From Tricharina praecox (lineage: Eukaryota), in the NCBI RefSeq assembly GCF_024521635.1, contig NW_026250419.1:620001-684000 (forward strand): DNA of 64,000 bases. Reading direction: 5' to 3'. Of the stretch, positions 43,433 to 48,931 are shown in pieces; within the stretch, counting starts at the first letter, position 1; each line of letters opens with the position of its first letter. The position numbers were made by a program, and so were the translations under genes. Under the pieces are notes generated by a model. That model did not search any database, was not told where the DNA came from, and worked only from the letters and a program-made list of their open reading frames with translations.

Positions 43433-45666
43433 ATGAACTCCTCCGGCTTCGGATCCGACCGTGAGCACGCTCACGCGCCGGGGGGAGAGGACGAGGAGGG
43501 GGAGGAGGGGTACGAGATGCGGCCGCTGCAGTCGCGGGGCGCCGAGGGCGAGGGCGAAGAGCTTTTGGGCGGGAAGACTCAGGACGACGAGGGCGACGAC
43601 GACGACGATGATGCAGGCGATTACTCCGGCGGCGATGAAGTGCTATATGCCATCGACGAGGGGCCGGATGGTCACGAGCCCCCGCTGAGGAGCCCTAGGA
43701 GGAGGATGCGCAGGAGGGAGTTTTTGTATACGCGGGCGGAAGAGAGGGCCGTCGTCAGGAAGCTCGATAAGTATCTTGTCGGCGGGCTGGCCGTGCTGTA
43801 TATGCTCAGGTATGCTATCGAGACCCCACAGGGGAAAGTGGAGGGAGTTGCGCACCGGGATTGCTGACGCATGGTTTAGTTTTTTGGATCGAAGTAGTAA
43901 GTACAACTTGCTCGGTCTGATGGATGGTGTCTGTGGGAGCGTGGGCGCTAATTATCCTCACCGCTTGGGTAGATATCGGCAATGTAAGACGGTGGGCATT
44001 ACGTTCTGTAATGTATCGTTGCTAACCACCCAGTCGCTTGACACAGGCGAGGATAGCTGGCATGAAGGAAGATCTCGATCTGAGCGGCGACAGGTATGAA
44101 TGGCTACTGTCAGCGTTCTATGTAACCTACATCGTGAGTCTTCCGCACACTATTGGAGATTCGCAAGTGTGGTGCTGATTGATCCTCGTAGCTCTTCCAA
44201 TGGTGTACGCTGCTGTGGAAAGTGTTTCCGGCGCATAAATATGTCGCCTGTTGTGTGGTGGGGTATGCGTAACCTTTTATCCGGAGTGGAAAAGCTACTA
44301 ATAGCTGGCTTTAAGGTGGGGTCTGGTAGCTTCATTGCAAGCTTTGGCGGTCAATTGGTTCTCCCTCGTTGTGTTGAGGGCAGCGCTTGGAATCTTTGAA
44401 GCAGCTTTTGGTCCTGGTATGATTTGACCTCATCAACTTAGGCTCGCCTGTCTGACAAAAATCAGGTGTGCCGTTCTACCTTAGTCTTTTCTATCGGAGG
44501 GAAGAGCTTGCACTCCGAACAGGCCTGTTCATTTCGGCTGCTCCATTGGCTACAGCGTATGCTGGGTTTCTAGCCTATGCAATCACGTCGATACCGTCAT
44601 CGATAGCTCCGTGGCGCCTTCTCTTTCTGCTCGAAGGGTTTCCGTCACTCGTTGCCGGTATTTGTGCGTATTACTTCATCCCGGACTCACCCGCCGATGC
44701 TGGTTTCCTCCGTCGAGATCAGAAGAAGATTGCACGCCGAAGACTGCTCGTGGTCCGTGATGACGAGGAGGATACGGGCACTGTGATAGCGACCGAGGAG
44801 AGGCGTGGGCTGAGGTGGAAAGAGGTCTGGAGAGCTTTCAGAGATCCGGGGAATTGGATCACGGCTCTCATCTTCTTCTTTGCGAACGTCTCATTTGCGT
44901 CTCTTCCCGTGTTCCTCCCTACCATCATCAACGAGTAGGTCTTCCTCATTCACAACCCATGGATCGATTATTTACAGCTGGCAGGATGGACCTTGGAGTC
45001 AATACCGTCTCTCCGGCCCAAGCCCAAGCACTTTCAATCCCACCTTACATCTTTGGCCTTTGTGTCATACTCCTCACAACATATCTCTCGGACCGATTCC
45101 GCTCCCGCTCCGTTCCGCTAATCATCCTCTGCATCACCAGCATTTCCGGCTACCTACTCCTGGTGCTTTCCGGACTACTCCATAAGAGCCTCACCAAGCT
45201 CGCCTCAGACGTAGCCGATATCGAATCCCCCGGCGCATGGTGGGAAGAGAAGATTCCCACCTCGAAATTCCTCGCCACCCACAGCTCTACCGTAGTCATG
45301 AGCTATGTCGGCATCATGCTTGCCGCCGGTACCATTTTCGCCATTATCTCCCTCGTCATCACCTGGAACGGAAACAACTCAGAAACCGAGAGCAGCCGAG
45401 GAGCGGGGATGGCGATTCTGCAGGGGCTGGGACAGTGTGGTCCGCTGCTGGGGACAAGGCTGTATCCCGCCGACCAGGGGCCTGAGTACATCAGTGGCAG
45501 CTTGACGTGTGCTGGGTGCATGCTCGTCGTGTGCTGTCTTGTAGGATTACAGCGGTGGAGGCTGGGCAGGGAGAATAGACGGAGAGAGGCGCTGGACTCC
45601 AGGGAGGCAGCGATGGAAGGGGACGGTACACGGAGGAGAGTTAGGCGATTCCTTTATATGCTTTAA
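43433..45666 (+). CDS. MFS transporter, anion:cation symporter (Dal5/Tna1-like) family, ~604 aa
   Basis: Eight exons (43433-43809, 43880-43896, 43973-43983, 44047-44133, 44192-44262, 44316-44416, 44466-44934, 44985-45666) total 1815 nt. Family motifs: EERAVVRKLD, SFLDRSNIGNARIAGM, LGIFEAAFGPG, FYRREELALR, WRLLFLLEG, YLSDRFRSR. Confidence 0.93.
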
Positions 45667-46089
45667 TTCGGTGTGCTTTTGCAGGTTTGCTTCTAGCTGC
45701 GGCATCTACATACATAAGATGCGGATTTGATTTCGCGGAGAATAGATACCATCTGATTTTGTCATCCATTCTGATGATGCCCATTACCTCATCGATCTGA
45801 TCGAGCGATATCCAAGTTCAAATGATGATTTATGTCCTCATCCCGGGCATCGGAGATTGCCGCGTGCCCTAAACCCTTTCCGAATTTTGTGCTATGCCCC
45901 GCCGCGTGTGAATCATTTCACCCCACCAAACAGCGATCGCCATCTCCCCAATCGTCCATACCACCATCATCTGCGAACCCATCCTCAACCTTCAAGCTGT
46001 CGCTTCTCCGCATTGTTTCCCGCTCCCTCCGTTGGGCTCCCATCACCAGTTCCAGAGTCTCAGCGTTCCCCCCACGCCGCTACATAACC

Positions 46090-47582
46090 ATGGCCTCCCT
46101 CGCCCTCTCCCCCGCCGACAAAGCTCTCTCGCTCCTCGTCACGTCTTTCAAAGACCTGTCGATAACGCTCTCGACCGCGACTCCGGCAGTCTCCCAGTTC
46201 ACCGCTGGCGACAAGACCATCACGGGGGCCTCAGCGATCGCCTCGCACTTCGCATCTCTCATCCCCGCCCTCCAGAACACAACCTACACCGCCGAGGAAT
46301 CCGCCGAGATCCAGCGATGGCTCGAGCTCCTCCCGTGCACACCGGTACCCGAGAGCACTCTCGACACTCTCAACGAGACGCTCAAGTTCCGGAGCACGCT
46401 CCTGGGCGAGAAGTTCTCGATCGCCGACGCCGTCGTCTACGCCAGCGTCAAGAACGATGTCGCCGCGTGGAGCGATGAACAGCGCACCGGCGAGAAGGGC
46501 CGCAGACATGTCATCCGCTGGCTGGACTTTGTGCAGAACTCGCCGGAGCTCGGTTTGAATGTCCCCGAGACTGAGAAGGTCACGGTTGATGTCGAGAAGG
46601 TCCTGTTTATGCCCAAGCCTGAGGAGGCCCCTAAGAAGGAGAAGAAGCCGGCTGCGGCTGCTGTGGAGCCGGCCGCGAAGGGTGTGGTCGAGCAGGCGAA
46701 GAAGGGTGCCGCGGTCGCGGCGGAGACCGTCGAGAAGGTCGCACAAACGGTTAAGGATGCGGCTGGTGCCGCGGTGGCTGCCGTCCAGGGGCAGGGAAAG
46801 AAGACGGAGAAGAAGGTGAAGCAGAAGCGCGAGGCCCCCCCGCCTAAACCAGGTACTTTACCATCCGGGAAGAATTGTCTTTCTAGTTACTGACGAAGTG
46901 GGCAGAGCCCGTCATGTCACCCGCCCAGCTCGATCTCCGCGTCGGCCACATCCTCTACTGCCGTCCCCACCCCAACGCCGACTCCCTCTTCGTCTCTACC
47001 ATCGCCATGGGCGACGACCCCAGCAGCACTGTAATCACCCCCCACTCCGAGATCACCGACCTCCCTGCCGAGATCCTTGCCAAATTCAACCCTCTCCCTC
47101 CCGTCCGCACCGTCTGCTCGGGCCTCAACGGCCTCGTCCCCCTCGAGGAAATGCAGGACCGCAAAGTCGTGGTCGTTGCCAACCTCAAGCCCGTAGTTAT
47201 GCGCGGTATCAAATCCGCCGCCATGGTACTTGCGGCTTCTCCCCGTCCCGCGGCAGGAGAGGAGGCTAGCCACAAGAAGGAGTTCGTGGAGCTTGTCTCG
47301 CCGCCGGCAGGCGCCCAGGCAGGCGAAAAAGTGTTCTTTGAGGGCTATGAGGGAACCCCCGATGCCCAGCTGAACCCCAAGAAGAAGATTTTTGAGCAGA
47401 TCCAGCCTGGGTTCAAGACGCTTGAGGATGATACGACGGTGGCGTTTGACCGTGCGCTTGCTGGATGGGTCGGTCCCGATGGAGAGAAGGGTAAGGCTAA
47501 GGGTGAGGCGGTCGCGAAGCTGGTTACCAGCTCTGGAGGCGTTTGTAAAGCCCCCACTCTCAAGGGTGCGGCTATTTCATAG
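46090..47582 (+). CDS. ARC1: Arc1-like aminoacyl-tRNA synthetase cofactor (GST-like N domain + EMAP II/OB tRNA-binding domain), ~479 aa
   Basis: Exons 46090-46852 and 46906-47582. Motifs: RHVIRWLDFVQN, LDLRVGHI, HPNADSLFVS, RTVCSGL, VANLKPVVMRGIKSAAMVLAAS, QLNPKKKIFEQIQPGF. Confidence 0.92.
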
Positions 47583-47817
47583 ATTTCCTAGGTTCTAGAA
47601 TGGGGAAAATTATGAACTGGTTGTAGAGCTGCAGTACTACATTGAAAGGAATTGGATCATTGGTTGCTGCTAGTTGCTGTATCATGGAGGGGACGTTCGG
47701 CGTGACAAACGCTGAAATCGCATTGGCTCGCAATCATGGATAAAATAGGCACATGTATCCCCCATCTAGGAAATAGAAGACATCTGCTTCCTCCCTCTTC
47801 CACCGGCTTCTACAGCC

Positions 47818-48931
47818 CTACTCGTCATTGGGCAGCATATCCGGCACAGGACCGAGCGGTACGATGCCGTGGGGATTGATCTGCGAGTGGCTCATCGTAT
47901 AATGCTAGATACCTCGTCAGCTCTCGCCGATCCAACAAAATCAAGTTTAACTGCACATACCTTCTTAATATGCTCAAAGTTGGTCGTCTCCTTGAATGCG
48001 GGAATGTCCCAGTACAAATGTCTGAGCCACTTGTGGATGTGTGGGTAATCATGTCTGATCATCTTCAAGTTTGTCTTGAAGTGCTGAACATAGACCGGAT
48101 CGAACCGCACAACCGTCGGGTACAGCCTGATATCCGCCTCTGTCAACTGCTCGCCAAAGATGTACCTGCCGCCTTTCGCATGCGACGCCGCCAGGATCTC
48201 CTCCACGCGGTCCAGCGTGGCAAACACCCCCGTGACCGCGTCCTCGTACGCCGCCTGCTTCGTGGCGAAGCCTGACTTGTACACGCCGTTATTAAGCCCG
48301 TCGTAGACCCAGCCGTTGAACTCATCGATCTGCGCGCGGAGGTGCTCGGGGTAGTACGTTACGCCCTGGTTCTCGGCGGGCAGCAGCCCGTCAAACTCGG
48401 TGTACATCAACCGGATGATCTCGGCGCTCTCGTTGTTGACGATGGTCCCCTTCTGCGTATCCCAGACCAGCGGCACCGTGAACCTCCCCGCGTAGTCCGG
48501 GCTCGCGGCGAAGTACAGATCCTTGAGGTGGCGGGCGCCGATCACGCCCTCGGGCGCAACGGCGAGCTCGGGGTTGTTCGCCGCCTCCTCCGCAGTCGCA
48601 AAGTGCCAGCCCGACGTGCCCATGTGCCAATGCACGATTGATACTGGCAGCAGCGAGGGGTCGGCATCTAAGCCCTTGAGCTTGCGCACGATGAGTGTGC
48701 GGTGCGCCCAGGGGCACGCGAGTGAGACGAAGAGGTGGTAGCGGTTTGAGACCGCCGGGAATGGCGAGGACAGAGACGAGCTGAGCGCGTTGCGGAAGAT
48801 CGAGGTGCTCCGCTTGAATTCGCCGGTTTTTGAGTCTGTCGGCACCCAGTCGGTGATTTTGGAGGGGGCGGTCTGCAAGTGGGGTTAGATGGGTGAGGAG
48901 GGGACAGGATGCGGAGGGGGGGACGTGCCAT
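47818..48931 (-). CDS. ECM4: Omega-like glutathione transferase / glutathionyl-hydroquinone reductase (Ecm4/YqjG type), ~333 aa; a longer form from ATG 49027 is possible
   Basis: Exons 48931-48929 (ATG only), 48872-47961 and 47904-47818. Motifs: [77 protein letters not shown]. Confidence 0.93.

What the first reader, a model, noticed from the sequence alone, without database searches (positions are those of the whole stretch)
45997..46092. Probable CUG-initiated mitochondrial presequence on the Arc1-like gene
Seen: the frame upstream of ATG 46090 is open. From a CTG at 45997 (context TTCAAG-CTG-T, A at -3) it reads (M)SLLRIVSRSLRWAPITSSRVSAFPPRRYIT-MAS. These 31 residues are Arg/Ser/Leu-rich, have no acidic residue and end in an RRY motif. 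Established: this composition typifies MPP-cleaved presequences, and near-cognate starts produce mitochondrial isoforms of fungal tRNA synthetases (yeast GRS1, ALA1); yeast Arc1 is described as a cytosolic anchor for MetRS/GluRS. Inference: this fungus may make a mitochondrial Arc1 isoform by non-AUG initiation. An in-frame ATG at 45832 exists, but it lies only 165 nt after the MFS stop and the peptide it adds is not presequence-like.
Basis: partly seen in the sequence, partly recalled or inferred. Interest (0 to 1): 0.72.

Follow-up and report, generated by a model that had tools for sequence, protein, structure and literature searches.

The report
Hidden mitochondrial start on fungal Arc1
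The fungal tRNA-helper protein Arc1, known from baker's yeast as the anchor that holds enzymes in the cytosol, carries a conserved hidden leader that starts at a CUG codon and looks like a mitochondrial import signal, so many fungi probably also make a mitochondrial Arc1.

Summary
A CTG at 45997 with A at -3 opens 31 in-frame codons before the strong ATG (46090) of the genome's only ARC1 match. The leader has no acidic residue, six Arg, an amphipathic start and an RRY end. The CTG with A at -3 is kept in frame in 4 of 5 distinct fungal loci. Two of these have a stop just above it and no in-frame AUG. The upstream ATG at 45832 is GTG in one of two RNA assemblies. Among 18 filamentous-ascomycete Arc1 records that run past the main Met, 17 have no D/E in the last 30 residues, against 3 of 36 control frames. 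Diplocarpon, Schizosaccharomyces cryophilus and Lipomyces records show Met-started leaders of the same type. Best reading: leaky CUG initiation makes a minor mitochondrial Arc1, and dual targeting is widespread in ascomycetes. Near-cognate presequences are a known mechanism, and human p43/AIMP1 has a mitochondrial isoform of unknown function; I found no report for fungal Arc1. Translation, import and the transcription start were not tested directly.

The parts
45832..45834 (+). Upstream in-frame ATG in poor context (TTT-ATG-T); judged incidental
   Evidence: A>G at 45832 in run X2; not conserved in L002-L004; the peptide it adds has net charge 0 over its first 31 aa; lies upstream of the conserved 45866-45887 block
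45866..45887 (+). Conserved promoter-like block (CCCTAAACCC core), probably upstream of the TSS
   Evidence: Nearly invariant in window, L002, L003 and L004 while its flanks carry indels. The likeness to telobox/Tbf1 sites is recalled, and promoter function is inferred.
45909..45915 (+). TGAATCA motif, one mismatch from the Gcn4/Cpc-1 site (recalled consensus)
   Evidence: TGAATCA in L002, TGAATCG in L003/L004. Its reading frame relative to ARC1 differs between species.
45994..45999 (+). AAG-CTG: probable near-cognate start codon (45997-45999) with A at -3
   Evidence: AAG-CTG in L002, L003/L004 and L007, AAC-CTG in L005, all in frame; absent in L006. K-L at the start of the leader in P0004, P0046, P0555, P0602.
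45997..46089 (+). 31-codon presequence-like N-terminal extension; amphipathic segment at about 46000-46032
   Evidence: No indel, stop or D/E in three species despite 23-29 substitutions per pair. Net charge +6; hydrophobic moment 0.91, against 0.85, 0.41 and 0.54 for the N-termini of this genome's mtGluRS, mtMetRS and GatB.
46075..46083 (+). RRY, candidate MPP cleavage motif (R-2/R-3 type, recalled)
   Evidence: RRY is kept in L002 and L003/L004. R at -2 of the main Met in 7 of 18 extended orthologues. Cleavage not tested.
46090..46852 (+). ARC1 exon 1 from the main ATG (strong context ACC-ATG-G): GST-like N-domain and Lys/Ala-rich linker
   Evidence: PF21972 at about 46300-46542; PDB 2hqt/2hrk matches
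46853..46905 (+). 53-nt GT..AG intron
   Evidence: Spliced in contigs of X1 and X2
46906..47582 (+). ARC1 exon 2: OB-fold tRNA-binding (EMAPII-like) domain, stop TAG at 47580-47582
   Evidence: PF01588; the only locus matching that family in G000

Best explanation
One ARC1 gene makes two proteins. Scanning ribosomes start at low frequency at the CUG (45997, A at -3) and make a 510-aa precursor whose 31-residue leader is a cleavable mitochondrial matrix presequence. Most ribosomes leak past to the strong AUG (46090) and make the 479-aa cytosolic Arc1. After import and MPP cleavage near RRY, the matrix form is almost identical to the cytosolic one. Dual targeting is probably widespread in Ascomycota, with the upstream start being CUG or another near-cognate codon in most filamentous species and AUG in some. 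Shown: sequence, conservation, composition, splicing, a single gene match. Inferred: initiation, import, cleavage. Most likely job (about 0.4 on its own): a tRNA-binding cofactor in the matrix that pairs with imported cytosolic GluRS to make Glu-tRNA(Gln) for the GatFAB amidotransferase. Arc1 would then be a partner inside mitochondria and not only a cytosolic anchor.
For: (1) CTG with A at -3, in frame, in 4 of 5 distinct fungal loci, including two at only 41-47% identity. (2) L003/L004 have an in-frame stop 8 codons above the CTG and no ATG within 300 nt; L007 has a stop 4 codons above the CTG and no in-frame ATG in the open stretch; any extension there must start at a non-AUG codon. (3) No indel from AAG-CTG to ATG, but indels directly upstream; the two other frames collect stops or D/E in L002-L004. 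(4) When the observed substitutions are re-placed at random, all features survive in 0.2-1.9% of 20,000 runs for each of 6 pair directions. (5) 17 of 18 extended orthologues have no D/E in the last 30 residues (1 of 540, against 19 of 381 further upstream); 14 of 18 have R>=4 and D/E<=1, against 3 of 36 control frames. (6) Diplocarpon rosae has Met at -26, where P0359-P0361 have Leu in a like sequence; S. cryophilus (P0232) and Lipomyces tetrasporus (P0228) Arc1 records begin with Met and a presequence-like leader ahead of a second Met. (7) Human p43 has a mitochondrial isoform from an upstream AUG (review PMC4394549, passage); yeast Arc1p given an MTS is imported and helps charge mitochondrial tRNA(Gln) as a fusion (PMC3467082, abstract and passages). 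(8) The genome has GatB, one GlnRS and a cytosolic GluRS with a GST-like N-domain.
Against: No direct data on initiation, import or TSS. The RNA contigs bridge the MFS, ARC1 and GST genes and cannot show a start or strand. dN/dS in the leader is 0.73-0.93, and the peptide properties alone survive random re-placement in 6-20% of runs, so the three close species give only modest evidence. L006 has no such CTG and a less typical leader. L002 (-183) and L005 (-207, -12) have in-frame upstream ATGs in poor context. +4 is not G in any CTG locus. 4 of 18 extended orthologues fail the R>=4 test, among them P0302, P0497 and P0514. Most Arc1 records start at the second Met and say nothing either way. 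The extended set was picked by eye and its members are related. No TargetP or MitoFates run. The GluRS partner role is untested.
Confidence: 0.82

Rival explanations
1. The leader is a real presequence, but it is reached from an upstream AUG (45832 here) or another near-cognate codon, or it is controlled by alternative transcription starts and not by leaky scanning.
For: In-frame upstream ATGs exist in the window, L002 and L005. Other in-frame near-cognate codons exist at 45856, 45889, 45958, 46012 and 46042. Alternative TSSs back up this control in Cryptococcus aaRS genes (PMC7049704, passage).
Against: ATG 45832 is GTG in X2. The upstream ATGs sit at different places in each species and are absent in L003/L004. 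Presequence character begins at the CTG: the 31 codons above it have a moment of 0.29 and one acidic residue. Frame conservation ends at AAG-CTG.
Confidence: 0.08
2. The region is an untranslated 5' leader. Its pyrimidine-rich makeup gives an open, acid-free frame by chance, and its conservation reflects RNA- or DNA-level constraint.
For: dN/dS near 1, and substitutions are spread over the three codon positions. Pyrimidine-rich DNA has few stops and GAN codons. 43 of 69 rough starts have 20 or more open codons upstream.
Against: No RNA structure signal: z = +0.33, +0.82 and -0.25 for window, L002 and L003. Control frames have 103 D/E in 1080 residues, against 1 in 540. The peptide character persists across classes where the DNA is no longer alike, and Met replaces the near-cognate codon in some species.
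Confidence: 0.06
3. The extension is translated but does something else, such as nuclear or nucleolar targeting through its Arg residues, extra RNA binding, or tuning of Arc1 levels.
For: It is basic, and Arc1 binds nucleic acids (family annotation). CPC1 near-cognate extensions in the same fungi are not described as targeting signals ('mitochondri' 0 hits in PMC5487733).
Against: Arg is spaced along an amphipathic helix, not clustered; sequence turns over fast at fixed composition; Arg sits just before the second Met. This matches the N-termini of the genome's own mitochondrial proteins.
Confidence: 0.04

Closest known systems
Human p43/AIMP1 mitochondrial isoform (Shalak, Kaminska and Mirande 2009; seen only as cited in review PMC4394549)
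   Same: Homologue of Arc1p; one mRNA gives mitochondrial and cytosolic forms by alternative initiation; mitochondrial function stated as not known.
   Different: Human uses two AUGs and a 9-residue addition. Here the upstream start is CUG, the leader is a classical 31-residue presequence, and the protein has the GST-like N-domain of fungal Arc1. Common ancestry of the two leaders was not tested.
Near-cognate-initiated mitochondrial isoforms: S. cerevisiae ALA1, GRS1, HYR1 (PMC6582344, passages); Cryptococcus ArgRS and LeuRS (PMC7049704, passages)
   Same: Weak upstream non-AUG start in good context, presequence, strong downstream AUG; AUG and near-cognate starts swap between species.
   Different: Those are enzymes with a clear need in the matrix, the synthetases being single-copy. 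Arc1 is a non-catalytic cofactor, and this genome has separate mitochondrial GluRS and MetRS genes.
S. cerevisiae Arc1p and the MetRS-Arc1p-GluRS complex (reviews PMC4394549, PMC7600831; PMC7358010; passages)
   Same: Same domain order; cytosolic GluRS here keeps its GST-like domain; GatB is present.
   Different: Yeast Arc1p is described as a cytosolic anchor whose loss releases GluRS to mitochondria, and AUG-started Arc1p-EcGlnRS-GFP was only cytoplasmic. Here Arc1 itself appears to be imported, and cytosolic MetRS seems to lack the GST-like N-domain.
CPC1/cpc-1 near-cognate N-terminal extension of Pezizomycotina (PMC5487733, passages)
   Same: Conserved non-AUG extension across filamentous ascomycetes, including a conserved CUG; shows that these fungi use such starts.
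   Different: Long (about 180 aa) regulatory extension that bypasses a uORF; not described as a targeting signal.

Membership tests
Arc1p/p43 (AIMP1) synthetase cofactors | GST-like N-domain, basic linker and C-terminal OB-fold tRNA-binding domain | tested here: met
   PF21972 and PF01588 over cut-off; 2hqt/2hrk matches
Arc1p/p43 (AIMP1) synthetase cofactors | Binds cytosolic GluRS and MetRS through GST-like domains | tested here: inconclusive
   GluRS has GluRS_N (E 2.4e-5, under cut-off) and GST_C hits. MetRS has only about 40 residues before its catalytic domain and no MetRS-N hit, but that search rang in no control genome. Binding not tested.
Near-cognate-initiated mitochondrial isoforms (ALA1/GRS1 type) | In-frame near-cognate codon in good context upstream of a strong AUG, with no stop between | tested here: met
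   A at -3, T at +4
Near-cognate-initiated mitochondrial isoforms (ALA1/GRS1 type) | Start codon, frame and leader conserved in relatives | tested here: met
   4 of 5 distinct fungal loci; L006 is the exception
Near-cognate-initiated mitochondrial isoforms (ALA1/GRS1 type) | Leader lies within the mRNA | tested here: inconclusive
   RNA contigs cover it without an intron but bridge three genes. P0359-P0361 run 35-41 residues above the main Met in another class.
Near-cognate-initiated mitochondrial isoforms (ALA1/GRS1 type) | Ribosomes initiate at the codon | not testable with these tools
   No ribosome profiling or proteomics available
MPP-cleaved matrix presequence | 15-50 aa, net positive, no acidic residues, amphipathic helix | tested here: met
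   31 aa, +6, 0 D/E, moment 0.91 by my own script, not a trained predictor
MPP-cleaved matrix presequence | Arg at -2/-3 of a cleavage site, and actual import and cleavage | not testable with these tools
   RRY is conserved in three species; the motif rule is recalled; import and cleavage need experiment

The most novel reading that the evidence does not exclude
A mitochondrial Arc1/p43 is an ancient, overlooked part of the mitochondrial translation machinery. It is kept through hidden upstream starts across Ascomycota and perhaps from fungi to humans, and works in the matrix as the tRNA-binding partner of imported cytosolic GluRS in Gln-tRNA synthesis. The textbook 'Arc1 as cytosolic anchor' switch would then be a derived state of S. 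cerevisiae and its kin.
Probability: 0.3. Interest if true: 0.78.

Novelty: new member of a known kind. Interest (0 to 1): 0.56.

Why it matters
Most public filamentous-fungal Arc1 records seen here start at the second Met, so they would miss an isoform. In yeast, Arc1 controls mitochondrial translation by keeping GluRS out of mitochondria; an Arc1 that is itself imported means this model does not carry over to most ascomycetes. The function of human mitochondrial p43 was stated as unknown in a 2015 review. A single codon change in a laboratory fungus removes only the mitochondrial form, which makes that question directly testable.

Tried and rejected
TSS from RNA: no run on record as RNA was listed as a holder. 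X1 and X2 are spliced contigs that bridge three genes, so no start or strand can be read. RNA structure as the cause of conservation: rejected, z near 0. ATG 45832 as the real start: rejected. Codon-level selection test: weak, dN/dS 0.73-0.93. A presequence-like extension on cytosolic GluRS, MetRS or GlnRS: not seen by eye; their upstream frames hold acidic residues or close early. The bacterial promoter scan does not apply to a fungus. L008 and L009 were dropped: their frames read as unrelated GST-like genes. Of 79 proteins flagged as extended among 447, 59 were dropped because the offset came from truncated neighbours, from longer lineage-specific N-domains or from distant families with no identifiable second Met. 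P0359 and P0360 were merged with P0361; P0024, P0078 and P0604 were removed as near duplicates; P0555 and P0602 were added. The MetRS-N search was blank with no positive control. No complex or fold prediction was run: the Arc1-GluRS pair is a solved textbook pair, and a pass would not bear on import. Literature: ten searches listed no paper on a mitochondrial fungal Arc1 isoform. ARC1 had 0 hits in the main text of PMC6582344, PMC7049704 and bioRxiv 2025.03.27.645657 and in the one held supplement of PMC7049704 (the Neurospora id used there is recalled). The supplement of PMC6582344 could not be read and may list S. cerevisiae ARC1. Frechin 2009 is not held. Subscription papers and mitochondrial proteome tables were not searchable.

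Full report
Observation. The sequence is as described. A CTG at 45997-45999 (TTCAAG-CTG-T) opens 31 in-frame codons before the ATG at 46090 (ACC-ATG-G). The gene is ARC1: Arc1p_N_like and tRNA_bind domains, matches to yeast Arc1p N-domain structures, one locus in the genome by two searches, and one 53-nt intron at 46853-46905 spliced in two RNA assemblies. The closest named proteins are from Sphaerosporella, Trichophaea and Pyronema at 60-63%, so the organism is probably a Pezizales fungus (inference).

The leader looks like a presequence. It has six Arg, no D/E and a best helical hydrophobic moment of 0.91. The first 31 residues of this genome's mitochondrial GluRS, MetRS and GatB have net charge +5 to +6 and moments of 0.85, 0.41 and 0.54. 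The 31 codons above the CTG score 0.29, and Arc1 from its ATG has net charge 0 (my own script, not a trained predictor). In 464 kb of this genome, 0 of 68 other rough starts pass the combined test of near-cognate codon, context and peptide. The starts were called by simple rules and the thresholds were set with this peptide in view.

DNA of relatives. The metagenome scan gave 8 loci. Two read as unrelated GST-like genes and were dropped, and L003/L004 are nearly identical, leaving 5 distinct fungal loci. L002 (81%) and L003/L004 (84%) keep AAG-CTG exactly 31 codons up, with no indel to the ATG, 7 Arg, no D/E and RRY; indels begin directly above AAG. L003/L004 have an in-frame stop 8 codons above the CTG and no ATG within 300 nt. 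The distant L007 (41%) has AAG-CTG 40 codons up with a stop 4 codons higher, and L005 (47%) has AAC-CTG 45 codons up; both leaders are acid-free with net charge +9 to +10. These two resemble the Dothideomycete protein P0066 by eye; no tree was built. L006 lacks the CTG. Against a simple picture: L002 and L005 carry in-frame upstream ATGs in poor context, dN/dS in the leader is 0.73-0.93, and under random re-placement of the observed substitutions the peptide features alone survive in 6-20% of runs, all features together in 0.2-1.9%. The ATG at 45832 is GTG in run X2 and lies above a conserved block at 45866-45887 that I read as a promoter element (likeness to telobox sites recalled). The leader has no unusual RNA structure.

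Proteins of relatives. Some database records run past the main Met and so show the translated leader. From 79 flagged among 447 plus records, I kept 18 non-redundant filamentous-ascomycete-type proteins with a clear second Met. Of these, 17 have no D/E in the last 30 residues (1 in 540, against 19 in 381 further up, Fisher p 5e-7, members not independent); 14 have at least 4 Arg and at most 1 D/E, against 3 of 36 open control frames from this genome. An open frame is built into this selection and is not counted as evidence. K-L, the translation expected of AAG-CTG, heads the leader in P0004 (Pezizomycete-like), P0046 (Durotheca, Xylariales), and P0555 and P0602 (Penicillium-like), the last reading KLTPFR against KLTPLR in L002/L003; their codons were not seen. 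Diplocarpon rosae has Met 26 residues up, where P0359-P0361 have Leu in a like sequence. Schizosaccharomyces cryophilus (P0232) and Lipomyces tetrasporus (P0228) records start with Met and a presequence-like leader before a second Met. For unnamed records such as P0016 and P0602 the first Met may be a gene caller's TTG or GTG. P0359-P0361 begin 'MG' at three nearby positions, which would fit cDNA 5' ends behind a template-switch adapter (recalled, not tested).

Mechanism. Most likely, leaky scanning: a minority of ribosomes start at the CUG and make a 510-aa precursor that is imported and cleaved near RRY, while the rest make the 479-aa cytosolic protein. Near-cognate initiation is documented in these fungi for cpc-1, including a conserved CUG (PMC5487733, passages). 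For its job in the matrix I favour a tRNA-binding cofactor of imported cytosolic GluRS (about 0.4). This genome has GatB, one GlnRS with no presequence-like leader, and a cytosolic GluRS with a GST-like domain. In yeast, imported cytosolic GluRS makes Glu-tRNA(Gln) (PMC7358010, passages), and an imported Arc1p fusion improves charging of mitochondrial tRNA(Gln) (PMC3467082, abstract and passages). Whether this fungus imports its cytosolic GluRS is unknown. Cytosolic MetRS here appears to lack the GST-like domain, so the yeast ternary complex may not exist in the same form.

What is known. The mechanism is established for ALA1, GRS1 and Cryptococcus ArgRS and LeuRS (PMC6582344 and PMC7049704, passages). 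Human p43/AIMP1 makes a mitochondrial form from an upstream AUG, with function 'not known' (review PMC4394549, passage; the primary paper was not read). Yeast Arc1p is described as a cytosolic anchor (PMC7600831 and PMC4394549, passages), and S. pombe asc1 is listed as a cofactor for cytoplasmic synthetases (PMC7563549, one table row). Ten searches listed no report of a mitochondrial fungal Arc1; the library lacks most subscription papers and one relevant supplement was unreadable. The scan's earlier notes hold nothing on Arc1 and show like cases for other genes, which I did not check.

Verdict. A real, conserved feature and a new member of a known kind. Confidence that it is a translated, near-cognate-started mitochondrial presequence: 0.82. 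Interest 0.56: the mechanism is familiar, but the protein is unexpected in the yeast model, the trait spans Ascomycota, and it gives a one-codon test of what mitochondrial Arc1/p43 does.

Noticed in passing
G000:C94, L023:1299-1590: Cytosolic MetRS has only about 40 residues before its catalytic domain and no GST-like (MetRS-N) domain was found, so the yeast Arc1-MetRS interface may be missing; the Pfam search had no positive control.
   Followed up: partly
window 45866-45887 and 45909-45915: Two conserved promoter-like motifs, a CCCTAAACCC block and TGAATCA. The second yields an in-frame ATG in L002 and probably the 'MNH' start of P0004. Likeness to Tbf1/telobox and Gcn4/Cpc-1 sites is recalled.
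   Followed up: partly
window 48872-48929, minus strand: Joint with CT..GC ends in X2, which reads as a GC-AG intron near the start of the neighbouring glutathione transferase-like gene (named by eye from its translation).
   Followed up: no
window 44047-48872: Spliced RNA contigs run without a break across the MFS gene, ARC1 and the convergent gene, including both intergenic stretches, suggesting overlapping UTRs or read-through.
   Followed up: no
window 43809-44047: The RNA contigs hold 28 letters between the two sides of this joint, which suggests a micro-exon in the MFS gene.
   Followed up: no
P0295, P0208, P0222, P0225: Proteins with a presequence-like N-terminus and a tRNA-binding domain; P0295 has no Arc1 N-domain by Pfam. 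They may be dedicated mitochondrial tRNA-binding proteins or fragments.
   Followed up: no
P0283, P0334: Distant Arc1-like proteins of unknown taxon with GST-like and tRNA-binding domains also show a presequence-like stretch ahead of a second Met, hinting at dual targeting outside Ascomycota.
   Followed up: partly
L006:450-632: An Arc1 copy from the same metagenome set as L005 and L007 lacks the CTG but keeps an open, basic leader with an in-frame ATG 59 codons up.
   Followed up: partly
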